Shown here: piece by piece, positions 1 through 52,900 of the stretch
How the letters are laid out: each line of letters begins with the position of its first letter
How positions within the stretch are numbered: the stretch's first letter is position 1
Source: Chiloscyllium plagiosum
Lineage: Eukaryota
Length of the DNA: 64,000 bases
Assembly (NCBI RefSeq): GCF_004010195.1
Contig: NC_057728.1
Span: 52,218,401 to 52,282,400, forward strand
Direction of reading: 5' to 3'
Made by a program: the position numbers and the translations under genes
The notes under the pieces: model-generated
Told to the model about the DNA's origin: nothing
The model's database searches: none
The model's input: the letters and a program-made list of their open reading frames with translations, nothing else

Positions 1-253
1 CCCTCCTCTCTGACCTATCACCTTCATCCCCACCCCCATCCACCTACTGTACTCTTTGCTACCTTCTCCCCAGCCCCACCCCCTCCTACTTACCTCTCCG
101 CCCCAGAAGCTCCTTGCCTCTGTACCTGATGAAGGGCTTTTGCCCAAAACGTTGATTTTCCTGCTCCTTGAATGCTGCCTGACCTGCTGTGCTTTTCCAG
201 CACCACTCTAATCTAGACTCTGAATTCCAGCATCTCCAGTCCTCACTTTTGCC
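1..253 (+). mobile_element. Penelope-like element 3' end / pseudo-LTR (family A), decayed hammerhead at 126-153
   Basis: Same C-rich tract and terminus as 42170-42493, which is attached to Penelope coding sequence. Confidence 0.75.
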
Positions 254-439
254 CCGATCAGAATTGTGTTGAATGCCAATACCGAATATATGTTGACAAT
301 CTGGATCGTGGATTTAAATGTTCCAAATATTGACAGTACCATACAGATCAATTTCACAAACTGAATTTCAAATCAAATGCCTGTTCAAAAGTGTTATTCG
401 TGTAAGTTCAGTGTGTGCTGGGCAGTCTGCATGTGCAAA

Positions 440-1570
440 AGGAAATTAAAAAGTCCATAAATTGATGCTTAATATCCATTAATACCTTTGCTTAACAAAA
501 AATTATCTATCTTCGATTTAAAATTAATTGATCCAGCAACAACTTCCATTTGTGGAAGAGAGTTCCAAACATTGACCACCCTTTCTGTGTAGAAGTGCTT
601 CATAACATTTCTCCTAAATGGTCTGCCCTAATTTTTAGACTATGCCCCCTTGTTCTAGAATCACCAAACAATGGAAATATTTTTATCCGTCCTGTCTCTT
701 CCTGTTATTATCTTGAAGACTTTTATTAGATCAACCCCTAACCTTTGAAGAAATAGACCTAAATTATATAACATCTCCTCATAACTTAATCTCTTAAATC
801 CAGGTATCATTCTTGTAAAACTATATTGAACTCCCTCCAAGGCTAAATATATATTTCCTAAGGTGTGGTGCCCAGTTTGCTTCGTACTCCAAGTGAGGTC
901 TAGTCAGAGTTTTATATAACTTCTGCATCTTTGTGCTCTAGTCCTCTAGATATGAAAGGAACAATCTACCTGATGACATAGAAACATGACAGGACAAGGA
1001 CCAGCATGTAGCCATCACGGAACACATTTCCTGCGAACCCTTTTGGAATTTTCCACTGTACTGAATTTCACTCCATGCCAACATGCTATTAGTCTCCTTG
1101 ATTATTTTCTGCTCCTGTTTGTGGCATTTTGAAGATCTATGCATTGGAATTCTCCATTCTGCTTGGATATCAACTGCATTTAATTTTATACTATCTAGAA
1201 AATACCCTGATTTATCCCTTTTCAGTCCAACTTGCTTGCTCTGGAATCTATCCTCCACAATTTTACTCATTCACCTAATCTATCAATATCTGTAATTTTA
1301 TGCTCTCATCTACACAGTTTGCAATGCCACCTAACTTTGTGTCATCAGCAAATTTGTATATGTGATTTTCTATGCTATTATCCAAGTTATCAATAATGAA
1401 TGTGAATAATTGAGGCCTTTACACAGGTCCTGTGGGACATTACTAGTCACATCCTGCCAGTTTGAGTAATACCTATTAACCCCAATATGTCACCTGTCAC
1501 TCAACCAATTTCCCAGCTATGGGTCAGTAATTTGCCCTCAATTCTGTGTGCTTTTACCTCAGTTAACAGT
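440..1570 (-). mobile_element. Old CR1 LINE fragment(s)
   Basis: Decayed RT C-terminal and 3' CR1 sequence similar to younger copies in the window. Confidence 0.6.
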
Positions 1571-1767
1571 TTCTATTGGACAAAAGAAAATAATTATGCA
1601 TCCTTAGGAGGAAATTCTTATTGTCCTGTTCAACTCGTTGAATCACACCTCATCCAGGGAGCAGTACTGCACTGAAAGAAGGCTACAGTTTAAAGTGATT
1701 ATTCTCTTGACAACAAAATAGAAAATATCTTGCACAAGGATGATATTAGAGGTAAAGTATCGCATAC

Positions 1768-5632: not shown

Positions 5633-5764
5633 TACTTGTATTTAATAGATACATGATGCCTTATGCACCACATCACTGACCTCTACAGTACCTCACCATC
5701 CTGTACATGCAAATCTGTGTTTGTTCAAAGGTTATGTTAACCTAAACAATTTTGGCTGATACAT

Positions 5765-6189: not shown

Positions 6190-8450
6190 CATAGAGTCAA
6201 ACAGTTATACAGAAACAGACCCTTTGGACCAACTTGTCCACGCCGACCAAGTTTCCCAAATCCAGTCCCACCTGCTTGTGGTCGACCCTTATTCCTCTTA
6301 ACCTTTCCTATTCATGTACTTATGCTTAGTTTTGAACTCATCGACTCTAGGGAAAAGACATCGGCCATTCACCTTTCTATACCCCTCATGATCTTATAAA
6401 CCTCTATAAGGTCACCCCTCAACCTTCTACACTCCAGTGAAAAATGTCCCAGCCTCTCTTTATAATTCAAATCCTCCAGTCCTGGTAACATTCTGGTAAA
6501 TTTTTCTAAACCTTCTCCAATTTAGTAATATTGTTTCTATAACAGGGTAACCATAACTCTACACAGTACTCCAAAAGTGGTCTCACCAATGTCCTGTACA
6601 ACCTCAACATGATGTCCCAACTGCTACATTCAGTGGTCTGAGCAATGAAGGCAAATGCATTAAACACCTTCTCATCCACCCTCTGTATCTGTTATGCAGC
6701 CATCAAAGAACTATGTACCCGAACCGCTAGATTTCCCTGTTCAACAACACTACCCAAGGCACTACCTTTAACTGTATTAATCATGCCCTTGTTTGTTTTA
6801 CCAAAGTACAATACCTGCATTTAACCAAATTAAACTCTTGTTGTGGTTCTGTTCGCCGAGCTGGGAATTTGTGTTGCAGACATTTTGTCCCCTGTCTAGG
6901 TGACATCCTCAGTGCTTGGGAGCTTCCTGTGAAGTGCTTCTATGATCTTTCCTCCGGCATTTGTAGTGGTTTGAATCTGTCGTTTCCGGTTGTCAGTTCC
7001 AGCTATCTGTTGCAGTGGCCAGTGTATTGGGTCCAGATCGATGTGCTTATTGATTGAATCTGTGGATGAGTGCCATGCCTCTAGGAATTCCCCTGGTGAG
7101 TTGTTGTCTGAGAGTGGCTGTTGGTTTGTGTGCTGTTATGAGTCCTAGTGGTCGCAGTAGTCTGGCTGTCAGTTTGGAAATGCTCTTGATGTATGGTAGT
7201 GTGGCTAGTCCTTTGGGTTGTGGCATGTCCTCGTTCCGTTGTCTGTTGCAACCACCCCAACACACACAAAAGAAGTTGCATCAAGACACTATTCAAAAAG
7301 GCCACAATATACTGCAGTACACCAGAACTGCAAAAAGAGGAAGAAGAACACCTATACAATGTATTCGCCAAAAACAGATACTCGCGCAATTTCATCAACA
7401 GATGCCTAAGGGAAAGACAACGAAATGAGGACATGCCACAACCCAAAGGACTAGACAAATCTTCTCACAAACTTTGAACAAATTAAACTCTGTGTCACTC
7501 CTCAGCTCATTGGCCCAATTGATCAAAGTCCCTTTATAACCTTAGGCAATCCTTTTCACTGTCAACTATAGCAGCAATTTTGGAGTCATTCACAAATTTA
7601 CTAACCACATGTCCTAAATTCCTATCCAAATCGTTTACACAAACTACAAACAAACGTGCACCCACCACCAATCACTGTGGAACACTACTGGTCACAGGCT
7701 TCCAGTCCAAAATAAAACCATCCAATACCAATCTCTGTCTCCTACCGTCAAGCCAACTTTGTGACCAATTGGTAAACTTACCCGGAATCCCATAACCTTG
7801 CTGCAGAGCCTTGTCAAAGGCTTTACTAAAGTCCATGTAAACAAAGTCTACTATTTTGCCCTCAATCTTTTTGGATACATCCTCTAAAGTTCAATCAAGT
7901 TTGACAGACATGATTTGCCAAGCACAAAGCTATGCTGACTATCCTTAATCAGTCCTTGCCTCTCCAAATATATGGAAATCCATCCTCAGAATGCCATTCA
8001 ACAACTTACTCACTACTGATGTCAAACTCACACGTCTATAGTTCCCAGTTTTCTCCTTTAAATAAAGAAACATTAGCCACCCTCCAGTCCTCCATCACCT
8101 CATCCATGGCTGTAAATGATAGGAATATCTCTGCTAGGGCCCCATCGATTTCTTCACTAACTTCCCACAATTTCCTGGGATACATGGAACATAGAAGATT
8201 ACAGCGCAGTACAGGCCCTTCGGCTCTCGATGTTGTGCCGCCTTGTCATACTAATCTGAAGCCCATCCCACCTACACTATTCCACGTACGTCCATTTGCC
8301 TGTCCAATGACGACTTAAATGCACTTAAACTTGGCGAATCTACTACCGATGCAAGCAAAGCATTCCATACCCTTACTATTCTCTGAGGATACACTTGGTC
8401 AGGTTCCAGAGATTTATCTACCTTTGTTTTTTAAGACCTCCAGCACTTCA
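6190..8450 (-). mobile_element. CR1 LINE fragment interrupted by Penelope and short CR1 tail insertions
   Basis: RT remnants on the minus strand (MDFSKAFDK); CR1 3' tail near 6200. Confidence 0.8.
6839..7478. mobile_element. Penelope-like element, family B, with internal inversion
   Basis: Penelope-type coding remnants (KRSCIKTLFKKA..; TLPYIKSIS..ARLLRPLG..HKP) on opposite strands; flanked by 13-bp duplication CAAATTAAACTCT (6826, 7479). Confidence 0.8.
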
Positions 8451-8454
8451 TATG

Positions 8455-9703: not shown

Positions 9704-10050
9704 ACGATGTGGAGGTGCCAGTATTGGAGTGGGGTGGACAAAGTTAAAAATCGCACAACACCAGGTTATAATCCAACAGATTTACTTGGAAGCACTAGCT
9801 TTCTGAGCGTTGCTGCTTCATCTGGTGGTTGTAGACCATAAGACGCAATTTATAGCAAAAGACTACAGTGTCATACAACTGAAATGATATATTGAACAAA
9901 CAATATTGTTGTGTGATTTTTAACCCTGGAAGAAGATTCCTGAAGAAGGGCTTATGCCCGAAACGTCGATTCTCCTGCTCCTCGGATGCTACCTGGCCTG
10001 CTGTGTTTTTCCAGCACCACATTTTTCAATTCTGATTTTTAACCCTCTCC
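9704..10050. mobile_element. Penelope-like termini, family C with nested family A piece
   Basis: Recurrent gatgtggaggtgcc..gttaaaaatc..ccaggttata terminus (also 15772, 17646, 38665, 41371) plus a family A terminus at 9935-10035. Confidence 0.65.
9932..9975 (+). ncRNA. Minimal type I hammerhead ribozyme motif, Penelope family A (intact)
   Basis: CTGAAGA-A-GGGC(TTAT)GCCC-GAA-ACGT-C at 9940-9967; flanks agattc/gattct can form stem I with one mismatch. Confidence 0.7.
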
Positions 10051-15150: not shown

Positions 15151-15914
15151 TTGTGGTTCAGAACTTTAGAACAATATGGTTTTCTTGCTTAACTGGAACC
15201 AGGTTCAGTTAGTGCAGAGTTGTGTATTTGTTTAACTGTTCTACTTTTCAGTCCCCATTTTTGATTCCTTTCACAGTAACACTGAGTATTATTCTGCGAG
15301 ACGATGAACAATTATGGTAGAAGGAGACATTTTAATGGACAGTCCAAGGTCATATCTTCACTTAGCAACTCAGGGCACATGACGTGTTCATGCTAGAAAA
15401 GCATTTTGATTTAGTCTTAAGACCAGGGAATGCACATGTATTAACAAGGCTCCAAAAGTCAATATCATACCTAATCTAAACAATAAAATGGGGTCAGGAG
15501 TATTTGATTCCAAAAATAATGAACAGCTGTAAATTTGTCCAATCAGTCGAAGACTTCCCCTGTAAAAATTATTCATTGACTTCCTATCCTTCCCCAAAAT
15601 GTGCTGGGATCAGTTGGGATGAAGGTAGAGGTGGGAGTTAGTAGTACCTCTCTGGTATGAAAAAAAAGGCCCTTCAGCTCATTATGTCTGTGCACTATTC
15701 TAATTCAATTTTCCAACATTTGACCCATACGCCTTGGCATCGCAAGTGCACATCTAAGTATTTTTAAAAGGTGATGTGGAGACTTTGGAGTTGGATTGGG
15801 GTGGACAAGGTCAAAAATCAAATGACACCAGGTGATACTTCAACAGGTTCACCCAAAACCTCAAGCCCCTGGATCCCAACTCTCCCTCAGGCATGAGGAA
15901 GCTGTTGAGGGCAT

Positions 15915-16160: not shown

Positions 16161-16174
16161 CTCGGAGATAGTGA

Positions 16175-17082
16175 TGATTGCAGATGCTGGAGATTCAGAA
16201 TCAATAAAGTGTATCGCTGGAAAAGGCACAGCAGGTCAGAAAACATCTGAGAAGCAAGAGACTCTCTTGGTCTTCAGATGCTGCCTAACCTGCTGTGCCT
16301 TTTCCAGCGCCATACTCTACAGACCTCATGCAACTCAAGATTAAAGTGGTGCTGGAAAAGCACAGCTGGTCATGCAGCATCCGAGGAGCAGGAAAATCGA
16401 TTTTTGTCTGAAATGTTGATTCGCCTGTTCCTTGTGTGAGAAATAGAGAAGTATGTTGTTTTTACAGAAAGCTAATAATGCTGACAAACTAAGTATTGCA
16501 AGGGTAAAAGCTCAATTATTAAGCTTCTAGGTAGATAAGTATATGTGTGTACCAGAAAGAGGAACAATAAGCCCAGACATAACGCTGAGGACAGCTGCAA
16601 GGAGTGATAAGATGAGCAACCCTCTTGTGCAATTGGAAAAGAAGACCGATGCAAAACCACTAACTTAACACCACTAACTTAACATGTGATAGTGGTTTTG
16701 CAAGACGGTCACAGTGTATGTTCAAGAAAACAGAAGGGGAGTTTAATTTAGAAAAAGAGCAGTCACGTAGGGGCAATCAGGTCACAAGTTAGGCAGAGAA
16801 CAAGGGTAATTGGGTAATGTAGGAGTCAGGGGAGGTGACCTCACGCAGCTCAAAGGTATAACAGTATACTTGTTTCAATGCTCATTGCTCATTTGCTTAA
16901 CGCATTTGCAGCCCTTTCTTATAAGATTGTAAATAAATTTTCTTGTTTCTAGCTTTTGGTGGTCTCAGCTAATTTTGTTGAGTTTGTTTCCAACACTTGG
17001 ATGCTGCCTGACCTGCTGTGCTTTTCCAGCACCACTCTAACCTTGACTCTAATCTCCAGCATCTACAGTCCTCACTTTCGTT
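16175..17082. mobile_element. Cluster of inverted family A Penelope termini, split by a solo LTR
   Basis: gctggaaaagcacagcaggtcaggcagcatc and its reverse complement occur repeatedly; one copy is interrupted at 16434 and resumes at 16996. Confidence 0.7.
16435..16995 (+). mobile_element. Solo LTR (561 bp)
   Basis: TG...CA ends (TGTGAGAAA / TTTCCAACA), 4-bp TSD CTTG on both sides, TATA-like at about 16857 and AATAAA at 16932. Confidence 0.8.
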
Positions 17083-17264: not shown

Positions 17265-17640
17265 TTCGAAACGGTTGGTGCGGCACCTTCCAGCGGCGAT
17301 CCGTAGGAGGGCGGTGGTGGGAGGATTCCCGCACGGTCATGATAGGCCGGGCTGGGCCACAGCGGCCTGGACTGACCATGTCGCTCAGCCAGCAAGTGGT
17401 ACTGGCCCTGTGTCTCTTTATCTGTGTCTTTCTGGTGATTCCGAGAATGCTGGGGACTCCTGGCAGCGGGAAAGAGGCCGCGGGCCGGGCTCCGTCAGCG
17501 GGTCATCGTCCCCAAGGTATTGGCAGGGCGTGGGAGGTGAGGAGTGGGCACTCATCATGGAGGTGGGGTGGAGAGAGGGACAATGGCACCGACCTCGTCG
17601 GGTGGGGGGACGTAGGAAAGGGCACTGATCGTGGTGGGGA
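17265..17640 (+). promoter_or_regulatory. CpG island / promoter of the RIC3/CCDC107-family gene
   Basis: High GC and CpG density around the first exon; GGGCGG box near 17309. Confidence 0.7.
17378..17516 (+). CDS. ccdc107: RIC3/CCDC107-family protein, coding exon 1 (N-terminal hydrophobic segment)
   Basis: accATG in a CpG island; MSLSQQVVLALCLFICVFLVIPRMLG resembles the RIC3 N-terminus (QRVALASGLVLALSLLLPK). Donor G|GTATTG, phase 1. The symbol is a best match; orthology is unproven. Confidence 0.85.
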
Positions 17641-17947
17641 GCCATGATGTGGAGGTGCCGGTGTTGGACTGGGGTGGATAAAGTTAAAAATCTCACAACA
17701 TCAGGTTATGGTGCGGGAGGTCAGGATGGGCATTGGCGTGTGTATGGAATTGGCACTGACTGTGGCATGGGGAACATAACACTAATAGAGTGTGATGCAG
17801 ATACTCAGCAGCCCCTGAACACCAGCCCATATTACAGGGAGCACTGACTAAGGTGTAGATGCAATGACTAGAAGTTTGAATGCAGGCACTGAATGAGGTT
17901 GCCCCAAGAGGATTACGGACATTCGGTTTCAGTCTGTGGCTGACCCG

Positions 17948-18415
17948 TTGTCGATTTTCCTGCTCCTCGGATGCTGCCTGACCTGCTGTGCTTTTCCAGC
18001 ATTATACTCTCGACTCTGAGCTCTAGCATCTGCAGTCCTCACTTTCTCCCCATAGGCATTGTGTATCCAAAATCGAAAAGTGTGGCGCTGGAAAAGCACA
18101 GCAGGTCAGGCAGCTTGCGAAGAGGAGGAGAGTTGACGTTTTGTGCATAAGCCCTTTATTAGGAATGTGGTCATGAGTAACCAAGGCCAACATGGGAATA
18201 CTTCAGTGTTTTTCTTCAAATAGTGTCAGGGAATCCTCAATATGTGTAGATGAGGCTACAGGGTTTAATGTTTGATTGGAAATTTGGCAACTCTGCCATT
18301 AAAATATTCATCAGTGTTGCATTGACATTCCTGATGAAGAGCTTATGCCCGAAACATCGAGTCTCCTACTCCTCGGATGCTGCCTGACCTGCTGTACTTT
18401 TCCAGTGCCACACTG
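17948..18415. mobile_element. Family A Penelope termini in both orientations
   Basis: Three terminus copies with decayed hammerheads (18135-18163 minus, 18331-18358 plus). Confidence 0.7.
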
Positions 18416-18616
18416 TGCTGGTAGTGTCAGTCTGGATTTTCTGTCCATTCTGTGGATTGGAACCTGAATCTAAAAACTTCCAACTAAAAATGGCATGAAC
18501 TGAACTGTGTCTGATGCAATAAATGTTTGTTTTAATAGTCTGACCTGTGTATAATTCAATGATTGGTGAGGTTTTCTCCAACTTGCTGTCTTTTGAGACT
18601 ATCTATTATACACTAC

Positions 18617-18990
18617 GACCCACCCTCCCATCCTGGCACTTTCCCCTGCCACCGCAGGAACTGTAAAACCTGTGCCCACACCTCCTCCCTCACCTCCTTC
18701 CAAGGCCCTAAAGGAGCCTTCCACATCCAAAGTTTTACCTGCACATTCGCTAATATCATTTATTGTATCCGTTGCTCCCGATGCGGTCTCCTCTACATTG
18801 GGGAGACTGGACGCCTCCTAGCAGAGCGCTTTAGGGAACATCTCCGAGACACCCGCACCAATCAACCAAATCGCCCAGTGGCTCAACATTTCAACTCCCC
18901 CTCCCACTCTGCCGAGGATATGGAGGTGCTGGGCCTCCTCCACCTCGGATGCTGCCTGAATTGCTGTGCTCTTCCAGCACCACTGATCCA
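18617..18990 (+). mobile_element. Penelope-like element, GIY-YIG endonuclease fragment
   Basis: FPCHRRNCKTC..FTC...NIIYCIRCSRCGLLYIGETGRLLAERFREH: classic PLE GIY-YIG, joined to a family A terminus. Confidence 0.92.
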
Positions 18991-21249
18991 GTATCTATTA
19001 TACAGATTGAGTTTTCAAATAAGCAACTAACAATGTAATCTTACAATGCAGTGTTGAATATTCACTAACTTATGGACACCTTCACTTAAATTATCAATAT
19101 CAGTCCAATCAATGTTGTTGCTTTCTTATGACATTTCCTCATTTTGTGGCCTATTATGCTTTAATCTTGTTTCACTGACTCGCCTCTTTTCGGTACCAAA
19201 AATCCTCTTAGTTCTCTTGGCTTTGTTCCTCTAGCTAAAATTCAAACATCAGCACTTGATGTCTGAAAAATTAATTCAAATACATTTGCAAGGGATGTTG
19301 TAAGGTTAATTTTGAATGAGGCATTTTCATATTTGTTATGGTAATTTCCACAGCATTTGTCATTCTGTGTTGATGTAGGTTACACTTGGAGATTTTAATT
19401 ACTTTTGAGTTATGTGTAATTGTTGTGTGATTGGAATTTTGAATCACAGGCACTGACATTTCTGGGTTTGGAAAATACACACAACTTGCAAGCCATGACC
19501 AGGAATTTGACTTCCACCAAGCTCATTCCTGATGAAGGGCTTTTGCCCAAAATGTCGATTCACCTGCTTCTCTGAAGCTGCCTGACCTGCTGTGCTTTTC
19601 CAGCACCACATTCTCGACTCTAATCTCCAGCAATTGCAGTCCTCACTTTCACCTTGTTGACTGGCTCTTTAAGTTCAGAAAGAGGGGATCTCCTTGGACC
19701 TGTACTGGAATAGTAAATTCTGTAGTTTCCATTTATTGGTTTCTTTTGATGCAACACGTCATTTTCAAAATGTCTGTAGTTATGCCCAACTATTTGTACT
19801 TGAGCACAATTTTGTTCCGCTTAATTAAACCTAATGGAATCCCGGTGATGCGATGTTGGCCTGTATTGGTTACAGTAATTACACTTTATTCAACTCAGGT
19901 CACACTTACAGTATCTGGGTGATGGTTTTTCAAGAAATAACGTTGGTGTCTGAGTAAAAGTTGGATTATATAGAATTGCACTCTCTGACTGTAGCCCCTG
20001 GCCTGAGCTCTGGTGTTTCCTGAATTCTGCCTGAAATATTCTCACATCCTGTCAATTTGAATACCTTCTTATAATTCAAAACTACTGAATCTCATATATC
20101 AATCACTAGCTTACACTCATCATCTTTTTGTCCAAATTAAACAAATTCATTGTACACAATGTTCTGTAGCCTGGCTTTTGATCTTCTGCCTCCCTGACGT
20201 CATTTGCTTTTACTGTTGCAGCTGTTTACTTCTTGCATTATAGCCTTGTGGATTATGATACCTCTAAGGGGCATATCCAAGTACTTCTGATTTTAGTGAA
20301 GCATACACACCAGCATTCACTGATGATCTATGTAATCTAAAGTTATCAGTGCAGCTTTGGTAATACTAAGTAGTATGTCTTCGAACTGAAATAAATAAGA
20401 AAATTGATAACATTACTGTTGAAGGCTGCCTGCTTATCCCACGTTCCCTTGGAAATTTGGCTGCCTGTATGTTCTGGCCTTATTTTTCTTCAGTCATGGA
20501 ATGAGAGTGTCACCAGTTAGCTTCTAACTTGCATTTCCATTCCATACAACAATGTAGCATAGGTGTCACTGGCAAGGTCAGCATTGCAATGATCCCGAGT
20601 TAATTTTGAACTGATTGATTAGCATTTCAGAGGGCAGTTCAGGGTCAAGCACATTGCTGTGGAGTCAAATACAGATTTCCTCTCCTTTAAAGCAAAGGTA
20701 GATTTGTTGAACAGTAAAGAAAATAAGGGTTTTGGTGAGTGAGTGGATAGGTGGAGCTGAGTCTATAAGAAGATTCAGTTGTGATCTTGTTGAATGACAA
20801 GATCACAACTCGAGGGACCACATTTCCTACTTGTACTTCATATGTGTGAATCAAATAGATTTTTTATGATAGCAGACAATATTTACATGCCAAGTTATAT
20901 TGAATTCAAATTTCACCACCTGCTTTGATGAGATTTGAACCCATGTGTCCAGAACATTAGCCTGGGTTTTGGATTACTAGTCCAGTGATGTAACCACTAC
21001 ACACCACCTTATAGCCACAGTGTTTGTATAGCTGGTCCAGTTCAGTTTCTGGTCAATAGTAACTCCCAGAATTTTGATTTAAGATGTGTATGTGTGTGTC
21101 TGTGCATGCATGTGTGCCACTGCCTGACATGTGTGAGAAGAAAATGTGATTGCCATGTATTGGCCCAGGTGAGGACTTCTAATCTATCTGATAGCTGATT
21201 TGTTACATGAATAAACCAGGCTCACTTTAGTTTTCTTGAAATTGCTTTG

Positions 21250-22355
21250 CATTACCTTCTACATAGCAGATCAAATATAATGTGGGAAGATATGAGGTTA
21301 TGCACTTTGGCCAAAAGAATAGAGAAGCTGAATATTGTTTAAATGGAGAAAGACTGTTGTTGTGGTTCTGTTCGCCGAGCTGGGAACTTGTGTTGCAGAC
21401 GTTTCGTCCCCTGTCTAAGTGACATCCTCAGTGCTTGGGAGCCTCCTGTGAAGCGCTTCTGTGATCTTTTATGGGTGGGTTGCGCTTCGGCGGGGCGGTG
21501 TGGACTTGTTGGGCCGAAGGGCCTGTTTCCACACTGTAACTAATCTAATCTAATAATAGTAGTGTTGTCCCAGTCGAACTCATGTTGCTTGTCATTTGCA
21601 TGTGTGGCTACTAAGGATAGCTGGTCGTGTCGTTTCGTGGCTAGTTGGTGCTCATGGATGAGGATCGTTAGCTGTCTTCCTGTTTGTCCTATGTAAGACT
21701 TCAGAACCTACAGAACAGAGGGACTTGGGAGTCCTCCTTCATGAATCACCAAGGATTAGCATCCAAGTTTCGCAGGTGAAAGGAAAGGCGAATAGTCTTC
21801 CATTGGCCTTTTATTCCAAAGGAAATGCATAAAAGTAGGGAAGTTTTGCTGAAACTATATAAAGCACTAGACAGACTGAAAGGTATATCAACATTGGAGG
21901 CAATTCAGGGAAGGTTCACTTGGCAGATACCAGGTGTGGTGGGATTGTCTTATGAGGAGAGATTGAGTAGCTTGGGCGTGTACTCATTGGTTTATTGAAG
22001 AATAAGAGAGGGCCTTATTGAAATGTACAAGATTTATAAGGGACTTGATAGGATTGATGCGGAAAAATTGTGTCTGCTAGTTTTAAGAAACAATGTCAGA
22101 CTAAGGGGGTCACACATTTAAGAGTTGAGAGAAAATTTCTTCTATCAGAGGTAGTGAATCTGTGGAATTTCTTTACCATAGAGAGCCACAGAAGTTGGGT
22201 CAGTAAGTATATTCAAGGCCAAGTTAATTTTTTAAATCATTAGGGGAGTTGAGGGTTATGGGGAAAGAGTAGAAAGGTGGAGTTGAAGGTTGTCATGCCA
22301 TCCATGATCTCACTGAATGGCTAAATAGCCTGATTGGGCAACCTTTGCTCCTACA
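21250..22355 (+). mobile_element. CR1 3' fragment with nested Penelope family B / SINE piece (about 21356-21693)
   Basis: CR1 RT C-terminal remnants resume after the insert; AAGACT duplicated at both sides. Confidence 0.75.
21395..21434 (-). ncRNA. Minimal type I hammerhead ribozyme motif, Penelope family B (core intact)
   Basis: gca-CTGAGGA-T-GTCAC(TTAGACAG)GGGAC-GAA-ACGT-C-tgc; 3-bp stem I. Confidence 0.65.
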
Positions 22356-22650
22356 TCTGGTATCCCTGTTAACCTTCATTACTTTATAACTATTATCTGC
22401 AAGAGCTAGTGGGTTCCTGTGATCACAAAAAGAACAAGGCAACAATAGTTTAAGACATTCTAGCATTTACACATTGTGATGAAACATTCTTTGTAAGCAA
22501 TTAGCAGAGAGTATATGATTCTCAGGTAATCCTTCATTTTATATGATTGCATTTGACTGTTTCATTATATGATATAGCTTGATCCCTGAAGTACAGTATC
22601 ATATTGAATGACTTATCATATTGAATCTCTTCATTTGATGCATATTACAG

Positions 22651-22850
22651 TTCCTGGAAGAGGCCAGCCACTGGTTGCACAATCCAAATCCAATAATCCC
22701 AAAGGACAGCCTAATCTCAGGATGAAAAGTACAAATCAAAAGGAAATGAATAGTGACAAGACTCAGGGCAGAAACAAAGGATTTATTTTCCAGTTAATGC
22801 CACTTTATGCAATAGGAATAAGTGTATATGCAGTTTACAAACTTGTGCAG
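22651..22850 (+). CDS. ccdc107: RIC3/CCDC107-family protein, exon 2 (second transmembrane segment)
   Basis: Acceptor ttacAG. Ends GFIFQLMPLYAIGISVYAVYKLVQ (cf. RIC3 GLMGQIIPIYGFGIFLYILYILFK). Donor GTAAGT; phase 1 in, 0 out. Confidence 0.9.
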
Positions 22851-23149
22851 GTAAGTGCATTACTGTGGTGTACTTTACAAATAGAATAGCAATACATGAA
22901 TATTTTTGAATGCTGTTCACCTCTGACACTGGCAAAATATTGACAGTTTCCTCTTTCTAATATTTTCTAACCCCAGTATGACAGTAATACAGATTAAAAG
23001 AGGAGGCTTTGCAACTTATAATATATCGATCCGTTTGTGTAGGAATTTTCAGTTTGTGAATTTTTTTTTTCTGATGTTAAAAAATGTATTAATAATTTGA
23101 TAATGCAGTATTTAAACTTTGCAACCAAATGTATAATTTATTGCATACC

Positions 23150-32054: not shown

Positions 32055-32225
32055 AGCAGGTTATGCAGCATCTGAGCAGCAGGAGAATCGACGTTTCGGG
32101 CAGGAGCCCTTCATTAATAAATGTTGATTCTCCTGCTCCCTGGATGCTGCTTGACCTGCCGTGCTTTTCCAGCACCACATACTCTCGACTCTGATCTCCA
32201 GCAAGTGCAGTTCTCACTTTCTTCT
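32055..32225. mobile_element. Inverted family A Penelope termini
   Basis: gcagcatc..caggagaatcgacgtttcgggc followed by gattctcctgctcc..gatgctgc. Confidence 0.7.
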
Positions 32226-35345: not shown

Positions 35346-35954
35346 AATTAAAATGAACTAAAGTACATCACTACCTTAGTTGTGGCAGTGAGCTTCACTT
35401 TAATGCCTTGATCATGTTTTAGTTTGATGGTTTTGCTTTTATATTTCTTCTTGAAACCCACCTCTTTGATCAAGTTTATGATCACCTGTCCTATCTCATT
35501 GTTGCCTAGTTTAAAATTCCTGAAGAAGGGCTCATGCCCGAAACATCGATTCTCCTGCTCCTTGGATGCTGCCTGACCTGCTGCACTTTTCCAGCAACAC
35601 ATTTTCAGCTCTGATCTTCAGCATCTGCAGTCCTCACTTTTTCCTAGTTTAAAATTTCATCTGATATTGCACTTGAAGCACCTTAGAATGTTGCACTATG
35701 TCAAAGGCATTACATAAATTCAAGTTGTCCCCCAGAACATGATATTAATCTTTATATTTCTAAATGTGCATATACAGAAGCTTAAAATATTATTTTGAGA
35801 CAGTACTTGAGGAATTGAAGAGAACTTGGAAAAGAATTTTACATGAAAATGTTTTGACTTATGGAACATTAGTACTTTATTCCCAGTGATAGTTTAATAT
35901 AATTTCAACAACTATTTCTGTTTAGAATCATAATCTGTTTTCTCCCCAATTTAG

Positions 35955-36676: not shown

Positions 36677-37395
36677 TTACACCCAAATTTAATAAGGGAG
36701 GAAGAGTGCAAGAAAAAGACTACAAAATGTGTTCTTAGTGCTGATCTTTTAACCTGGTGAACTCAGTCTCAGCCTGCTGCCTTCCAGACAGAGCTCTGAC
36801 TTCACTTGCACTTGCTATCTAGCCTCACAGTCTACATCAAAAACTGCTGAAAGTATACCTGCAAAAAGAATGAATAGATTAATTATTTGAATTTGATTCT
36901 TCTTCAGAACAGGAGTCAAAATTTTAATTGTTAGGAGTTAACAGACCAGAATCTGCTCCTCAATTCAACAAGATCTCTTACTGAATCATTCACTTACTAA
37001 TCATTCACATCAACCTCACCTTCCTGAAATATCACCATATTTATTCCCCAACAATGCAACACATCTGTTGACCTATGTCTTGAATATACATCCCATTATC
37101 TAAAGAAAGATGTACTCGCATTGAAAACAGTCCAGAGAGCTGACATGGTTGATCCCAGGTATGAAGATCTTTTGAGGACAGGTGGAGTAGGTTGGGCTTA
37201 TACATATTGGAATTTAGGAGAATGAGGGGAGGCCTATTGAAATATAAGATTTTTAGGGGGCTTGACAGGGTAATTGTAGAAAGGTTGATTCCCCTTATAG
37301 GAGTAGAAAGTGAGGTCTGCAGATGCTGGAGATCAAAGTTGAAACTTTATTGCTGGAACAGCACAGCAGGTCAGGCAGCATCCAGGGAACAGGAG

Positions 37396-37431
37396 ATTCG
37401 ACGTTTCGGGCACAGGCCCTTCTTCAGGAAT
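37396..37431 (-). ncRNA. Minimal type I hammerhead ribozyme motif, family A, left arm of inverted element (intact)
   Basis: attc-CTGAAGA-A-GGGC(CTGT)GCCC-GAA-ACGT-C-gaat on the minus strand. Confidence 0.75.
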
Positions 37432-37592
37432 GAGCAGAGAGTGTTCAGCAGGAGAGAGGGAGGCAGAGAGCTTCTTCAAGGAAGGCATCCTTTTCTCCTC
37501 GAAGATTTCAACCTACTGCGAATCCTCTTACAAGAATGCCTTCCTTGAAGAAGCTCTCTGCCTCCCTCTCTCCTGCTGAACACTCTCTGCTC

Positions 37593-37628
37593 ATTCCTGA
37601 AGAAGGGCCTGTGCCCGAAACGTCGAAT
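37593..37628 (+). ncRNA. Minimal type I hammerhead ribozyme motif, family A, right arm of inverted element (intact)
   Basis: attc-CTGAAGA-A-GGGC(CTGT)GCCC-GAA-ACGT-C-gaat; perfect 4-bp stem I. Confidence 0.75.
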
Positions 37629-38756
37629 CTCCTGTTCCCTGGATGCTGCCTGACCTGCTGTGCTGTTCCAGCAATAAAGTTTCCCCTTATAGGAGTGCCT
37701 AGGACAAGAGGGCACAATCTCAGAGTAAGCGGTCACCCATTTAAAGCAAAGATGAGGATTTGTTTTAAAATCTGGATTTCTTCACTGCAGTGGGCTGTAG
37801 AGGGTGGGTTGTTAATTATATACAAAGCTGAGGTAGACACTATTAGTCAATAAGGATATCAAGGTTTATAGGGAGAAGGCTGGAAAATGGAGTTGAAGGT
37901 TATCGGATCAGCCATGATTACATTAAATAGAGGAGTAGCCTCGATGGACCAAATGGACTATTTCTGATCCAACATCTTAGGGTTATCAAATACTTGGGAG
38001 AGAATTCCTGCGAAGAGATTTCTCCTCAGTCTTACATTGCTGTTCCTGCACCTGCCTCTTGGTTGGTTGCCTGAACAGCATAAGTTAAAAATTACTCCTT
38101 TATTGTATTCTTTGAACAAATTTCTCATATCAGTCTTTTGCAATTTGGAGCCAAGAACAACTTACATTTTTATAATGCCTTTAACATTAATACCTGTAAA
38201 CTGATGACCACTTATATTTAAAAGGAAAAGGGCAGCAGATACATCAGAACACCAACACCACTTGCAAGTTCCTTTTCAAGCCCTCCACCATCCTGACTTG
38301 GAAATAAGAACTAGGAGCAGGAGGAGGCTGCCTGTCCCTTTGAGCCTGCTTCACTATCCAGTAAGATCATGGCTGATTTTTTTTCATGAACTCAGATCTA
38401 CTTACTCACGTTCTCACCATATACCTTAATTTCTTTATTGTTCAAAAAATCTTAGCTTTAAAAATTTTACTGAAGTAGCGTTAACTACTTCACTGGGCAA
38501 ACAATTCCATAGATTTACAACCCTCTGGGTGAAGAAGTTCCTTCTCAATTCAGTTCTAAATCTGTTCCCTATAATCTTGAGGCTATGCCCTCTTGTCCTA
38601 GTTTCACCTGCCAGTGGAAACATCTTCTCTCCTATCTTATCTATTCCCTTCTTAATTTTATAAGATTTGGAGATGCTGGTGTTGGACTTGGGTATACAAC
38701 ATTAAAAATCACACCAGGTTATTGTCCAACAGGTTCATTTGGAAGCACTAGCTTTT

Positions 38757-41370: not shown

Positions 41371-41407
41371 CACCTGATGAAGGAGCAGCGCTCCGAAAGC
41401 TAGTGCT
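41369..41407 (+). ncRNA. Minimal type I hammerhead ribozyme motif, family C (intact)
   Basis: agcac-CTGATGA-A-GGAGC(AGC)GCTCC-GAA-AGCT-A-gtgct; 5-bp stems I and II, AGCT palindrome. Confidence 0.75.
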
Positions 41408-41781
41408 TCCACATAAACCTGTTGGACTATAACCTGGTGTTGTGTGATTTTTAACTTAATTTTATATGCTTTGATAAGATTCCCACTCATTCTTCTGAAT
41501 TCCAATGAATATAATCCCAGTCTACTCAGTCTCTCTTCATTAGCCAACCCCTTCAACTCCGGAATCAACCTAGTGAGCCTCCTCTGCACTCCCTCCAGTG
41601 CCAGTACATCCTTTCTCAAGTATGTACATAGTACTCCAGGTGTGGCCTCACCAGCATTCTGTACAGCTGCAACATAACCTTCCTGCTTTTAAACTCAATC
41701 CCTTTAGCAATGAAGGGCAAAATTCCATTGCTTTGCTAATTACTTGTTGTACCTGCAGACCAACCTTTTGTGATTCATGCT

Positions 41782-42505
41782 GAAAATGTGTTGCTGGAAA
41801 AGCGGAGCAGGTCAGGCAGCATCCAAGGAGCAGGAGAATCGACTTTCCGCCACTTCCAAACGGACCCCACCACCAGGGATATATTTCCCTCCCCTCCCCT
41901 ATCAGCGTTTCAAAAAAACCACTCCCTCCATGACTCCCTTGTCAGGTCCACACCCCCCACCAACCCAACCTCCACTCCCGGCACCTTTCCCTGCAACCGC
42001 AAGAAATGCAAAACTTGCACCCACACCTCCCCCCTTACTTCCCTCCAAGGCCCCAAGGACCATAGCAACATGACGGCTGGAGGAAGAGTGCCTCATCTTC
42101 GGCCTAGGAACCCTCCAACCACAAGGGATGAACTCAGATTTCTCCAGTTTCCTCATTTCCCCTCTCCCCACCTTGTCTCAGTCCCAACTCTCGAACTCAG
42201 CACCACCTCCCTAACCTGCAATCTTTTTCCTGACCTCTCCGCCTCCACCCCCACTCCGGCCTATCACCCTCACCTTAACCTCCTTCCACCTATCGCACTT
42301 CCAAAACGCCTCCCCCAAGTCCCTCCTCCCTACCTTTTATCTTAGCCTGCTTGGCACACCCTCCTATTCCTGAAGAAGGGCTCATGCCCGAAAAGTCGAT
42401 TCTTCTGCTCCTTGGATGCTGCCTGACCTGCTGCGTTTTTCCAGCAACACATTTTCAGCTCTGATCTCCAGCAGCTGCAGTCTTCACTTTCTCTTAGAAG
42501 ATTTC
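41782..42505 (+). mobile_element. Penelope-like element (family A) with inverted 5' terminus
   Basis: SLHDSLVRS..GTFPCNRKKCKTC coding remnant; terminus with hammerhead-like motif at 42370; TGTGATTCATGCT duplicated at both sides. Confidence 0.85.
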
Positions 42506-48970: not shown

Positions 48971-49987
48971 AGAACTTCTCTATCCTTTCAGGAAAGCCTG
49001 AAGGCAGTAATATGAAAATAAGTTACAGTCTGGCACTTGACAGAAGGAAACAAAGTAGGAAATCGATTTCATGATCTGAAGTTGAACTTAACACTGAGTC
49101 CAGAAAGCTTTGAAGTATCAGAAAGCTGATGAGACGCTGTTCATCAAGCTATTATTGGGCTTCTTTGGAAAGCTGTAGTATGCTTAGGAAAGAAGTGCGA
49201 TGGTGTACTAAAACAGCAAGTGACTGAAGTCCAGTATCATGCCTGAAACTGAACCGAGGTGTTCTATAAAATATTCGGCATTTAGTGTTGAGTGTACAGC
49301 AGACAGCTCTGTGAGCAATGAATACAGAATACAAAACTGAAAAAAAGTACAAGCAAAGCACTGCTTCACCTGGAAGGAGTGTCTGGCTCCTTGGACAATG
49401 AGGAAAGAGGAGATGTTATTCCTCCTGTGATTCTATGGGAGAAGGAGCTAGTAAGTTAGGTGATCAAAGGCTTTGTCAAAAAGATAGATTTTAAAGGGGT
49501 AAGAGTTACAAAAATTAGGAAGGGAGTTTCAGAAGTTAGAGTCTAGCCAGCTTGCGTTTGACCATTTATGATAGGGTGAGAAAAATTGAATATTATGCCA
49601 GCAATTATCCCTCACCTAACAATACTAAAATAGATTATTTGCCAATTGTCATATTCATTTGACTGGCTGTAACATGTTTTAAAGACATACTTTTTTTGAA
49701 AAAATATCCTGTCCCAGGAGACCATAGATTCAAAGTGAATTTGGGGTATTCAAGAATGAGATAGATGCTTCAGATATTAAGGGGTATGGAGTAGAGCAAT
49801 GTGTTTAAAATCAAAAATGCAGAAATTGCCATGGACAAAAAAATTGGAGTGTACTCAATGGGTCAATCCCATTTCTGAGATTTTGTGAAATAAAGTAACA
49901 CAAAATTAAACTTTGTTGGTTAGTATTAGCTTTATAATTGAAAACAAAAACAATAGAGAGCAATGGAGTAATATTTAACCATTAAGG

Positions 49988-52900
49988 GAAGGTGATGGCC
50001 TAGCAGTATTATTGTTAGACTATTAATTCAGAGAGCTAGGTAATATTCTGGGGACTCGGGTTCAAATCCCACCATTGCAAATTTTAAAAATCTGGAATTA
50101 AGAATCTACTAATGACCATGAAACCACTGTCAATTATTAGAAAAAACAATTAATTTGAAAGAAATCTGTCGTCCTTGCCTGGTCTGTCCTAAATGTGAGG
50201 AGAAAGTGAGGGCTGCAAATGCTAGAGATCAGAGTTGAGAGTGTGTTGCTAGAAAAGCACAGCAGTTCAGGCAGCATCCGAGGAGCAGGAGATGGACGTT
50301 TCGGGCATAAGCCCTTCATCAGGTATCTCCTGCTTTGATTCTCCTGCTCCTCGGATGCTGCCTGACCTGCTGTGCTTTTCCAGCAACACACTCTCGACTC
50401 TGTCCTGCATGTGACTGTAGTCCCAAAGCAATGTGGTTCACAGTCATGTGCCCTCTGAAATGGCCTTGCAAGCCATTCAGTTATAACAATCTCTACAAAG
50501 TGTCAAAGGAATGAAACTAGACGGATCACCTGACAATAACCTGAAAAGACAATGGCAGAAATACCCCTGCAAAGTTCTCCTTACTAACATCTGGGGCTAG
50601 TGCCAAAACTGTGAGAGCTGTCTCACAGACTAGTCAAGCAACAGTCTGACATGGGTTATACTAGTGGAAACATACCTTACAGACAATGTCCCAGACAACA
50701 CCATCACTATTCCTGCATATGTCTTATCCAACTGGCAGGACAGCCCCAGCAGAATTGATGGCACCGTGGTATACAGTAGGGAGGAAGTTGCCCTAGGAGT
50801 CCTCAACATTGACTCTGGACCCAATGAGGTCTCGTAGCTTCAGATTAAGCATGGGCAAGGAATCTCCTGCTGATTACCACATCCTGTCCTCCCTTGGCTG
50901 ATGAATTAGTACTCCTCCATGTTGAACAATACTTGAAGGAATCACTGAGGATGGCAAGGATGCAAAATGTGTTCTGGGTGGGGATTTCAGAGTCCACTGC
51001 CAAGAGTGGCTTGGCAGCAGTATTACTGATCGAGCTGATCGGGCCCTAAAGGACATAGCTGCTAGACTAGGTCTGTGGCAGGTAGTGAGGGAACCAGCAA
51101 GAGGTTGAAACATACTTGACCTCGTCTTTACCAATCTCCCAGCTGTAGATGCATCTGTCCATGACAGGATCAGGAAGAGCGACCACTGCACAATCCTTGT
51201 GGAGATGAAGTCCTGCCTTCACATTAAGAATAACCTCCATAGTGTTGTGGGGCACTCTCATTATTTCAAATGGGACAGACATTACACAGATCTAGCAACT
51301 TAAGACTGAGCATCCATGAGGCATTGTGGAGCATCAACAGCAGCAGAATTGTACTCCAGCACAATCTGTAACCTCACAGCCTGGCATATCCCGCAATCAA
51401 CTATTACCATCAAGCCAGGCGATCAACTCTGATTCAGTGGAGAGTGCCAGGAACAGCACCAGGCACACCTGAAGATGAGGTGTTAACCTAGTGAAGGCAC
51501 CAAACAGGACTTCTCGCATATCAAACAGCAATAAGCAGCAAGCAACAGATCAGATCTAAGCTCTGCAGTCCTGTCACATCCAGTCGTGAATGGTAGTGAA
51601 TGATTAAACTGGAGGAGGAGGAAGCGCCACAAATATCCCCATCCTCGATGATGGAAAAGCCCAGCACATCAGTGCACAGGATGGGGCTGAAGCTTTTGCA
51701 ACAATCTTCAGCCAGAAGCGCTGAGTGGATGATCCATCTCCACCTCCTCCAGTGGTCCAGAGCATTACAGATGCCAGTCTTCAGTTAATTTGATTCACTG
51801 CACATGATATCAAGAAACATTTGGAGACACTGGATACTGCAAAGACTATGGGCCCGAACAACATTCCGGCAATACCATTGAAGACTTGAGGTATAAAACT
51901 TGCTGCTCCCCAAGTACAGGTACAGCACTGGTGTCTCCCCGGCAATGTGGAAAATTGCCCAAGTATGTCCTGTACGTAAAAAGCAGGATAAATCCAACTT
52001 GGCCAATTAACGTTCTGTCATTTTGCTCTCGACCATCATTAAAGTAATGTCATCCACAGTGCTATCAAGCAGCACCTACTGAGCAATAATCTGCTCAGTG
52101 AAACCAAGTTTGGGTACTGCCAGGACCACTCTATTCTTGACCTCAAACATGGACAAGAGAGTTGAATTCCAGAGGTGAGGTCAGAGTGACTCCTCTTGTC
52201 ATCAAGGTTGCATTCGACCAAGTGTGGCATCATGGAGCATTAGTAAAACTGGAATCAATTCATTTCAGGGGGAAATCTGTGCTGGCTGGAGTCATAGCTG
52301 ACACATAGGAAGGGGGTCGTGGTTGTTGGAGGTCAGTCATCTCAGCTCCAGGAAACTTTTGCAGGAGTTCAACGGGGTAATGTCCTAGGCCCAACCATCT
52401 GCAGCTGCTTCATCAATGACCATCCCTCATAAGGTCAGAAATGGGAATGTAGCCAATGATTGCACTATGTTCAGTACCATTCATGACTCCTTAGATACTG
52501 AAGCAGTCCATGTCCAAATACAACAAGGTCTGGACAATATCCAGACTTGGGCTGATAAGTGGCAAGTAACATTCGTGCCACACAAATGCCAGGCTATGAA
52601 CATCATCAATAAGAGACAATCTAACCAGCACTCCTTGATATTCAATGGTGTTACCATCACTGAATCCCCCACTATCAACATCCTGGGGTTATCATGGACC
52701 AGAAACTCAAGTTGTCTCACATCATAAACATAGTAGCTACAAAAGCAGGCCAGAGTCTAGAAGTACTGTGGTGAGTAACACATCTCCTGACTCCCCAAAG
52801 CCTGTACACCATCTACAAGGCACAAGTCAGGAGTGTGATGGAATACTCTTCACTTGCCTGGAAGAATGCAGCTCCAACAACACTCAAGAAGCTTAACCCC

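What the first reader, a model, noticed from the sequence alone, without database searches (positions are those of the whole stretch)
126..50322. Dispersed minimal hammerhead ribozymes in three or more unrelated Penelope-like termini
Seen: the abundant short repeats contain the full hammerhead core in type I order. Family A is CTGA(T/A)GA-A-GGGC-N4-GCCC-GAA-ACGT-C (intact at 9940+, 37427-, 37597+, 50322-; decayed at 126, 18163, 18331, 19529, 32116, 35520, 42370), with a fixed stem II and variable loop (TTTT, TTAT, TCAT, CTGT, TCCT). Family B is CTGAGGA-T-GTCAC..GGGAC-GAA-ACGT-C (21431-; decayed 6912-, 25181+). Family C is CTGATGA-A-GGAGC-AGC-GCTCC-GAA-AGCT-A (41374+; decayed 9824-). The families differ completely in stems I and II yet keep pairing (attc/gaat, gca/tgc, cac/gtg), one extra base after A9, and a 4-nt palindrome in place of stem III (ACGU vs AGCU). 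That is structural covariation. Established: Penelope-like elements carry minimal hammerheads proposed to cleave as dimers, and metazoan retrozymes are hammerhead-bearing non-autonomous retroelements. Inference: about 15 motifs in 64 kb suggests a very large genome-wide ribozyme-bearing mobile system in this lineage. I cannot tell whether it has been described in sharks.
Basis: partly seen in the sequence, partly recalled or inferred. Interest (0 to 1): 0.85.

Follow-up and report, generated by a model that had tools for sequence, protein, structure and literature searches.

The report
Hammerhead ribozymes in Penelope retroelement ends
The short repeats are the cut-down ends of four families of Penelope-like jumping genes, each carrying a minimal self-cutting-RNA (hammerhead) motif; this pairing is already described in other animals, here it occurs about 230,000 times in the genome, and most copies likely no longer cut RNA.

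Summary
The motifs are real. All 16 listed positions hold a hammerhead core or remnant; 4 pass a strict descriptor (shuffles: 0.085). Genome-wide the core pattern occurs 231,352 times (control 1,100). They are minimal hammerheads in the terminal repeats of Penelope-like elements: longer copies run into reverse transcriptase and GIY-YIG frames, end at two sites about 36 nt apart and often form head-to-head palindromes. There are four families (25181 is separate), from three deep lineages: two Neptune-type, two sister Poseidon-type. Cervera and de la Peña (2014) described every structural feature listed; this scan already reported the system on other DNA of this genome. Corrections: 50322 lacks stem I; the dominant family-A subfamilies have an interrupted stem I; copies are not tandem, so not retrozymes. 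Copies start at the motif's front edge (54 of 122), not at the cut site (0 of 122), and decay sevenfold faster at CpGs, including catalytic G12. New here: family C carries a poly(A) signal just behind the cut site, and in one RNA run 906 reads show poly(A) tails about 30 nt past it. Cleavage itself is untested. Known kind, extreme copy number.

The parts
1..253 (+). Family A end fragment; core at 126-153 with G12>A (decayed)
6838..7063 (-). Family B (Poseidon-type) 3' fragment, core at 6912 with G12>A, GIY-YIG end motif 172 nt upstream; short inverted piece 6940-7063 on +
9711..9899 (-). Family C (Neptune-type) end fragment, core at 9824 with U4>A (decayed), with tail
9936..10038 (+). Family A stub starting 4 nt before the core; core 9940-9967 intact, stem I interrupted by U.U
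15787..15849 (-).
16164..16400 (.). Family A core-less pieces: head-to-head palindrome 16164-16318 and a further arm 16339-16400
16996..17079 (+). Family A tail fragment without core
17640..17712 (-). Family C tail fragment without core
17949..18050 (+). Family A fragment starting inside the palindrome
18076..18167 (-). Family A stub, core at 18162 with three core changes (decayed)
18326..18414 (+). Family A stub, core letters intact, palindrome broken (ACAT), stem II A.C mismatch
18563..18996 (+). Family A coding remnant: CX4CXXC linker and GIY-YIG (Pfam E 2.7e-05) joined directly to the end repeat downstream of the core
19518..19653 (+). Family A stub with tail; G12>A and palindrome broken
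21356..21469 (-). Family B end fragment; core 21398-21431 passes the strict descriptor (stem I 3 bp)
24316..24391 (+).
25126..25238 (+). Family D (Poseidon-type, sister of B) end fragment; core letters intact, stems decayed
32055..32222 (.). Family A head-to-head palindrome; minus arm with core at 32117 decayed
35516..35640 (+). Family A stub with tail; palindrome broken (ACAT)
37301..37683 (.). One young family A (CTGT) head-to-head insertion with 9-base target duplication; both cores (37400-37427 minus, 37597-37624 plus) pass the strict descriptor but are predicted to be paired in a long hairpin
38664..38755 (-). Family C fragment starting at the end of the core
41371..41457 (+). Family C stub starting 3 nt before the core; core 41374-41402 passes the strict descriptor (stem I 5 bp); poly(A) hexamer changed to CATAAA
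41779..42490 (+). 5'-truncated family A element: inverted partial end repeat (41779-41849, minus), linker and endonuclease remnant, 3' region, core at 42370 with broken palindrome, tail
50199..50413 (.). Family A palindrome; minus arm has an intact core (50295-50322) but no stem I; plus arm begins just after the cut site
17378..22886 (+). Host context: first exon (17378-17518) and an exon with a Pfam RIC3 match (within 22608-22886); copies from 17640 to 21469 lie between them

Best explanation
The motifs are the minimal type I hammerheads of the terminal repeats (pseudo-LTRs) of four Penelope-like retrotransposon families, scattered as short end fragments, and most copies are likely dead as ribozymes. 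Shown: longer copies continue upstream into reverse transcriptase and GIY-YIG frames; 3' ends fall at two sites about 36 nt apart downstream of the cut site; 5' ends pile up at the front edge of the motif and not at the cut site; 40-50% of copies have a head-to-head partner; copies decay fastest at CpGs. Inferred: the element's own protein nicks DNA and starts reverse transcription inside its RNA at one of the two downstream sites, using RNA that the hammerhead has not cut, and usually runs off near the front of the hammerhead, probably because the RNA starts there. Inferred: the motif is under selection only in the parent elements, where it would cut slowly and only with help (a second copy pairing through the 4-nt palindrome, the element's protein, or both). 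Inferred: after insertion, host CpG methylation destroys the C11.1-G12 step and the ACGU palindrome. In family C the end repeat also works as a polyadenylation site (shown in one run), so a cut would strip the poly(A) tail from the message (inferred).
For: Coding link: GIY-YIG in the window; RT, linker and GIY-YIG in one frame about 200 nt before a family A core (L098, L097, L093); repeat-ORF-repeat plus inverted repeat for family C (L043) and its endonuclease in other copies; B and D endonuclease ends 127-325 nt before the core. In eight unselected 100-kb blocks: 3' ends bimodal (A: 40 at +56..68, 56 at +88..104, 6 between, of 122; C: 18, 22 and 4 of 47); 5' ends at -13..+5 in 54 of 122 A and 15 of 47 C, within 2 nt of the cut site in 0 of 122 and 2 of 47; upstream flanks of 28 solo edge-starting copies unrelated (1 of 378 pairs similar) and 8 of 28 with a target duplication against 2 of 140 controls; head-to-head partner within 300 nt in 49 of 122 A (2.9 expected) and 24 of 47 C (0.4 expected). 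Selection in parents: the core letters are shared by lineages 25-35% identical in protein; the compensated A-U pair in family A stem II occurs 1,785 times against 54 expected from single changes. Decay: 77 of 340 CpG positions changed against 22 of 680 other core positions. RNA: 499 and 407 reads with poly(T) loose ends 32 and 29 nt past the family C cut site, and read depth continues across the site; hexamer AATAAA or ATTAAA in 25 of 38 matches; no A-rich DNA there in 62 of 62 copies. Literature: PMC4209133, PMC11167929, PMC8557442, PMC3846280.
Against: No cleavage was measured. That the RNA starts at the front of the motif is inferred from insertion ends only; the 3'-tag RNA library shows no pile-up of starts or ends. 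Ends come from local alignments to 8 natural reference copies and are uncertain by a few bases; 3 window pieces do start at the first base after the cut site. The compensated pair is one subfamily, so one event. The poly(A) evidence is one sample (its second run laid 0 reads) of a coded organism not shown to be the window's species, and may come from host transcripts that end in element copies. No single intact full-length element was recovered: long copies are broken or span assembly gaps. Neptune and Poseidon labels rest on the linker motif, without a tree of named references.
Confidence: 0.8

Rival explanations
1. The motif is kept in the parent elements as a structure or signal (protein-binding site, promoter or RNA start element) and no longer needs to cut; the catalytic look is inherited.
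For: The dominant family A subfamilies have only 2 contiguous stem I pairs: 4 of 68 sampled copies reach 3; 12,132 genome copies have the full form against 79,576 with the core. Family D copy L040 has 1 pair. In the anole element, catalytic mutants did not affect insertion in vitro (PMC11167929). Polyadenylated RNA crosses the cut site.
Against: All 11 catalytic letters, NUH and a palindrome are kept across three deep lineages while stems change; the palindrome switches from ACGU to AGCU and stays self-complementary; the anole motif does cut with protein.
Confidence: 0.12
2. The scattered copies form an active host-level system: same-sense copies in long host transcripts pair through their palindromes (A, B and D with each other, C only with C) and cut pre-mRNA, or remove poly(A) tails where family C ends a transcript.
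For: At least 12,132 complete family A motifs, 11,894 family C and 4,079 family B pattern matches; 66 cores per Mb; palindrome compatibility; used poly(A) site behind family C; precedent of the Clec2 3' UTR hammerhead as summarised in PMC6765202.
Against: The shared helix III is worth only -1.7 (ACGU) or -2.5 (AGCU) kcal/mol; in 8 of 9 context folds the first stem I pair has probability 0.06 or less; head-to-head copies are fully paired. No excess of same-strand neighbours (52 of 122 within 4 kb, 57 expected). Copies decay with a CpG-driven, neutral-looking pattern. Published minimal hammerheads cut weakly; 8 of 9 Xenopus dimers did not cut.
Confidence: 0.06
3. The short units are independent non-autonomous retrozymes that multiply through circular RNA.
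For: Most copies are non-coding and about 90-130 nt; animal retrozymes derive from Penelope terminal repeats (bioRxiv 10.64898/2026.07.22.740005).
Against: None of the 13 tandem-repeat rows in the window covers a motif; same-strand neighbours within 300 nt 2 of 122 (5.7 by chance) and 1 of 47 (0.9); 5' ends are not at the cut site; the same end sequences continue into coding frames in longer copies; no listed back-joined raw reads in run X21 (35 joints not shown).
Confidence: 0.04

Closest known systems
Minimal hammerheads (min-HHR) in the pseudo-LTRs of metazoan Penelope-like elements (Cervera and de la Peña 2014, PMC4209133; parts 1-2 of 4 read)
   Same: Type I order, no helix III, extra base between 9 and 10.1, G10.1-C11.1, palindromic 15.2-16.2, several covarying families per genome, mostly single truncated copies, some close pairs on opposite strands.
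   Different: Copy number: 231,352 cores here against about 4,000 (coelacanth) and 9,000 (Xenopus tropicalis), with different descriptors. Sharks are not named in the parts read or in the 2 supplementary files searched (file 1 not searched). Family A stem II is 4 bp rather than 6-8.
Neptune-clade Penelope-like elements (domain definitions from Craig et al. 2021, PMC8557442; passages read)
   Same: Families A and C: RT, CX2-5CXXC linker, C-terminal GIY-YIG with CCHH; partial tandems, adjacent inverted copy, 30-40-nt tail.
   Different: Not placed in a tree with named references. Family C has 500-700 nt between the endonuclease and the hammerhead and a used poly(A) site behind it, which I did not find described.
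Poseidon element of the green anole, PAc (Frangieh et al. 2024, PMC11167929; parts 1-2 of 4 read)
   Same: Families B and D lack the linker like Penelope/Poseidon; two 3' end sites bounding a tail, explained there by internal initiation of reverse transcription; hammerhead protein-assisted, not needed for insertion, no RNA-seq ends at the cut site.
   Different: In PAc the ORF starts inside the hammerhead; in family C (L043) the first ATG of the long frame lies about 100 nt past the cut site. A pile-up of 5' ends at the front of the motif is not mentioned in the parts read.
Animal non-LTR retrozymes (bioRxiv 10.64898/2026.07.22.740005; parts 1-3 of 5 read)
   Same: Non-coding units with a type I hammerhead derived from Penelope terminal repeats; one chondrichthyan genome was included and held both retrozymes and such elements.
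   Different: Retrozymes are defined by tandem units each with a hammerhead; the copies here are solo or head-to-head.

Membership tests
Minimal type I hammerhead of Penelope-like elements | CUGANGA and GAAA boxes with NUH in type I order | tested here: met
   10 of 16 listed copies have all 11 core letters; 231,352 genome matches against 1,100
Minimal type I hammerhead of Penelope-like elements | Extra base between 9 and 10.1, G10.1-C11.1 pair, palindromic 15.1-16.1 | tested here: met
   All four families; ACGU in A, B, D and AGCU in C
Minimal type I hammerhead of Penelope-like elements | Stem I of about 3-5 bp | tested here: inconclusive
   Met in C, B and A-CTGT; 2 bp plus U.U or U.C plus 1-3 bp in the main A subfamilies (4 of 68 reach 3 contiguous pairs)
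Minimal type I hammerhead of Penelope-like elements | Compensatory stem changes between families | tested here: met
   G-C 124,974, A.C 2,759, G.U 2,426, A-U 1,785 (54 expected) at one stem II pair; one subfamily, so one event; no R-scape-type test across families
Minimal type I hammerhead of Penelope-like elements | Site-specific self-cleavage (as dimer or with protein) | not testable with these tools
   3'-tag RNA reads cannot show the products
Endonuclease-bearing Penelope-like element | RT and C-terminal GIY-YIG in one ORF upstream of the repeat | tested here: met
   Family A in one frame (L093, L097, L098). C and B: RT and endonuclease seen in separate broken copies. D: endonuclease only
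Endonuclease-bearing Penelope-like element | Direct pseudo-LTRs in partial tandem with adjacent inverted copy | tested here: met
   L043, L101; head-to-head partners in 49 of 122 and 24 of 47
Endonuclease-bearing Penelope-like element | Optional 30-40-nt tail and short target duplication | tested here: met
   Bimodal 3' ends in all four families; duplications in 8 of 28 against 2 of 140
Neptune clade (families A, C) | CX2-5CXXC linker before GIY-YIG, CCHH motif | tested here: met
   definition
Penelope/Poseidon clade (families B, D) | CCHH GIY-YIG without the linker zinc finger | tested here: met
   L022, L051 translations
Neptune or Poseidon clade | Phylogenetic placement of the RT with named references | not tested
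   No named reference proteins were held
Animal non-LTR retrozyme | Tandem units each with a hammerhead | tested here: not met
   (window and 772 kb sample; not genome-wide)
Animal non-LTR retrozyme | Circular RNA joined at the cut site | tested here: inconclusive
   No such joint listed in one poly(A)-selected run, which would miss circles
Rfam hammerhead families | Score at the family threshold | tested here: not met
   0 matches at gathering score; no hammerhead among 16 matches at E up to 10

The most novel reading that the evidence does not exclude
These Penelope-like elements use their end repeat the way retroviruses use an LTR: the RNA starts at the front of the hammerhead and, in family C, is polyadenylated 30 nt behind it, so hammerhead plus 30 nt is a terminal repeat of the message. 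Reverse transcription starts inside the 5' repeat and runs off after 90-130 nt; these strong-stop-like products usually integrate on their own, giving the hundreds of thousands of hammerhead-headed stubs, and sometimes jump to the 3' repeat to copy the whole element. The hammerhead would be a protein-triggered switch that removes cap or poly(A) tail.
Probability: 0.12. Interest if true: 0.75.

Novelty: new member of a known kind. Interest (0 to 1): 0.3.

Why it matters
The pairing of minimal hammerheads with Penelope-like ends is established, so the finding is not a new system. Its value is as material: about 230,000 cores (some 25 times the largest published count I saw, by a different descriptor) give statistics on the open question of what the ribozyme does in the Penelope cycle. 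They show that inserted copies come from uncut RNA, that copying ends at the ribozyme's front edge, that the catalytic G12 sits in a CpG so that host methylation would disable copies on its own, and that in one family a working poly(A) site lies directly behind the cut site. Each is testable at the bench with short RNAs.

Tried and rejected
Rfam at both thresholds: no hammerhead; the weak microRNA matches are the long palindromes. The open frames of 800-1,900 codons listed are runs of N, not genes. Pfam gives weak or no matches for several element proteins (3 of 7 matched, 1 above cut-off); the ESM Atlas look-alikes carry HTH_animal, GIY-YIG and RVT_1 (lead only). Run search: no RNA holder on record; run X22 laid 0 reads; neither is used as evidence. 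Family A reads in X21 lie on both strands with no poly(A) site, no pile-up of ends and no listed back-joint. Cleavage-born templates: rejected by the 5' end counts. Reverse-transcriptase stalling at the hairpin: considered less likely, since a stall would leave ends on the 3' side of the structure, not in front of it (inference). Later exons of the host gene were not mapped. Lünse, Weinberg and Breaker (PMC5785218) is not held: I saw only its title and the summary in PMC6765202, so it may list shark examples. Searches for a shark report; for a poly(A) site; none found, in an open-access library only. Supplements of the bioRxiv preprint (species and element tables) were not seen and may bear on this.


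Full report
OBSERVATION. All 16 coordinates hold the motif or a remnant on the stated strand. Ten keep all 11 core letters; seven of these also keep the palindrome. A strict type I descriptor passes 4 (37427-, 37597+, 41374+, 21431-), against a mean of 0.085 in 200 dinucleotide shuffles. 37427- and 37597+ are the arms of one insertion with a 9-base target duplication. 25181+ belongs to a fourth family, D. Rfam reports no hammerhead.

SCALE. The window is G000:C19:52218401-52282400 of a 3.56-Gb assembly. Exact patterns give 79,576 (A), 11,894 (C), 4,079 (B) and 335 (D, narrow pattern) matches with 0 in reversed controls. A generic core pattern gives 231,352 against 1,100; its subset without G at the second stem II position, 42,271 against 840, shows further stem II variants. 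Eight unselected 100-kb blocks (771,794 non-N bases) hold 51 generic cores, 66 per Mb, which matches the genome count. Matches to the 410-nt end references cover 3.8% of that sample. Palindromic insertions count twice. Family A motifs with core, stem II, palindrome and 3 contiguous stem I pairs number 12,132.

WHAT CARRIES THEM. The window has a GIY-YIG remnant at 18563-18945 (Pfam E 2.7e-05) and a 5'-truncated element at 41779-42490. Elsewhere family A cores lie about 200 nt behind frames holding RT, a CX4CXXC linker and a CCHH GIY-YIG. Family C has a repeat-ORF-repeat unit with a third, inverted repeat (L043; endonuclease deleted in that copy, present in L114, L144, L015). B and D cores follow linker-less GIY-YIG ends. 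By the definitions in Craig et al. 2021 (PMC8557442, 12 of 34 passages seen) A and C are Neptune-type and B and D Poseidon-type; no tree was built. Protein identity is 25-35% among A, B and C and 66% between B and D: three deep lineages, not unrelated ones. No intact full-length copy was recovered; the very long frames are assembly gaps.

ANATOMY OF THE COPIES (772-kb sample; copies reaching at least 25 nt past the cut site; 122 A, 47 C, 6 B, 10 D). 3' ends are bimodal, about 36 nt apart, in all families (A 40, 6, 56 of 122 in the short, middle and long bins; C 18, 4, 22 of 47), the tail signature that Frangieh et al. 2024 trace to two internal start sites of reverse transcription (PMC11167929, parts 1-2 of 4). 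5' ends lie at -13..+5 from C3 in 54 of 122 A and 15 of 47 C, against 5 and 4 in the 47 positions upstream, and within 2 nt of the cut site in 0 and 2. Earlier notes of this scan gave me this lead; the control here shows unrelated upstream flanks (1 of 378 pairs similar; 28 solo copies, 25 with inverted partners and 1 with N left out) and target duplications in 8 of 28 against 2 of 140. Against it: ends are alignment ends, and 3 window pieces start at the first base after the cut site. Head-to-head partners within 300 nt occur in 49 of 122 A and 24 of 47 C (2.9 and 0.4 expected); same-strand neighbours in 2 and 1 (5.7 and 0.9 expected). Such inverted structures are typical of these elements (PMC3846280, passages).

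SELECTION AND DECAY. Across lineages the core, NUH and a palindrome are kept while stems differ. Within family A one stem II pair is G-C in 124,974, A.C in 2,759, G.U in 2,426 and A-U in 1,785 copies; independent decay predicts 54 of the last, so a compensated subfamily existed (one event). Among 68 A copies spanning the core, 45 keep all core letters, 28 also stem II and palindrome, 26 have 2 stem I pairs and only 4 have 3; for 29 C copies the numbers are 8, 5 and 3, with alignment gaps near the cut site lowering them. Five CpG positions, including C11.1-G12 and the ACGU palindrome, are changed in 77 of 340 cells against 22 of 680 at other core positions. Because G10.1-C11.1 and G12 are both conserved, the general base always sits in a CpG; methylation-driven decay is my inference.

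FOLDING. Monomers can form stems I and II only. The shared helix III of a dimer is worth -1.7 (ACGU) or -2.5 (AGCU) kcal/mol; A, B and D are cross-compatible, C is not. In sequence context the first stem I pair has probability 0.46 for 9940+ and 0.06 or less for the other 8 folds; the 37301-37683 insertion forms one long hairpin that pairs the whole core. These are predictions for naked RNA.

RNA. No indexed holder is on record as RNA. About 2% of one raw poly(A) single-cell run (X21, coded organism B, not shown to be this species) was laid on family C (L043:4400-5400): 4,130 reads, with poly(T) loose ends at 4931 (499 reads) and 4934 (407), that is poly(A) added 32 and 29 nt past the cut site, 12-15 nt behind an ATTAAA and before a GU-rich stretch; depth continues across the cut site and at least 280 nt upstream, with mixed alleles. 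The hexamer is AATAAA or ATTAAA in 25 of 38 sample matches (13 others, several of them offset or unrelated); the DNA is not A-rich there in 62 of 62 copies, and 0 of 47 copies end there. The second run of that sample laid 0 reads. Family A reads (2,859) lie on both strands with no poly(A) site or pile-up. This library cannot show cleavage products.

MECHANISM. Shown: origin in Penelope-like ends, end positions, arrangement, decay pattern, poly(A) site of family C in one run. Inferred: target-primed reverse transcription from an internal site on uncut RNA, run-off at an RNA start near the front of the motif (an internal promoter is known for Drosophila Penelope, PMC2377424, passages), slow assisted cleavage only in parent transcripts, and inactivity of most copies. 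Rivals: a non-catalytic signal (0.12), an active host-level system (0.06), retrozymes (0.04).

COMPARISON AND NOVELTY. Cervera and de la Peña 2014 (PMC4209133, parts 1-2 of 4) describe the same motif, its four extra features, mostly solo copies, opposite-strand pairs, low activity even as dimers, and 4,000-9,000 copies in coelacanth and Xenopus. A 2026 preprint links animal retrozymes to these repeats and includes one chondrichthyan (parts 1-3 of 5). Reviews were seen as passages (PMC6155905; PMC6765202). I found no shark report, and no report of a poly(A) site behind the ribozyme; the library is open-access only and one key paper was not held. This scan has 169 notes on this genome that fit the same words. 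Verdict: new members of a known kind at extreme copy number; interest 0.3.

Noticed in passing
window 17378-17518 and 22608-22886 (+): Host gene with a signal-peptide-like first exon and a Pfam RIC3 match (E 7.7e-14); the copies downstream probably lie in its introns. Later exons not mapped.
   Followed up: partly
L043:4931-4950 (-); window 41403-41457 (+): Family C end repeat holds A(A/T)TAAA 12-17 nt after the cut site, a used poly(A) site and a GU-rich downstream stretch; copies inserted in sense in host genes could end host transcripts.
   Followed up: yes
L053:2142-2147 (+); window 37673-37678 (+): The A-CTGT subfamily has AATAAA 49 nt after the cut site; the other four family A references do not. 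No poly(A) reads listed there in run X21.
   Followed up: partly
G000 matches listed: Further stem II variants (for example a 6-bp stem with a CUA-containing loop and B-like forms with a G-G or A-G mismatch) point to more than four families.
   Followed up: no
L054, L060, L073-L089: Assembly gaps sit inside long copies and between inverted arms, so full-length elements are under-assembled.
   Followed up: partly
window 39141-40313 (-) and 34091-34756 (+): Reverse transcriptase frames (Pfam RVT_1, E 7.8e-29 and 1.5e-17), probably LINE remnants unrelated to the finding; several element stubs are inserted into such repeats.
   Followed up: no
window 55022-56095 and 61904-63243: Long inverted pair of repeat copies, 80-89% complementary in several blocks, about 6-8 kb apart.
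   Followed up: no
window 3857-4321 (+): Pfam ALKBH8_N match (E 6.3e-06) in a short frame; possibly a retroelement C-terminal piece (recalled, untested).
   Followed up: no
window 20920-21006 (-): Weak tRNA-like match (22.5 bits, below threshold); could be the head of a SINE.
   Followed up: no
window 18940-18945: The GIY-YIG frame joins the end repeat downstream of the core across a short shared CCTC-rich stretch, skipping about 350 nt including the hammerhead; L043 shows a similar skip of the whole endonuclease.
   Followed up: partly
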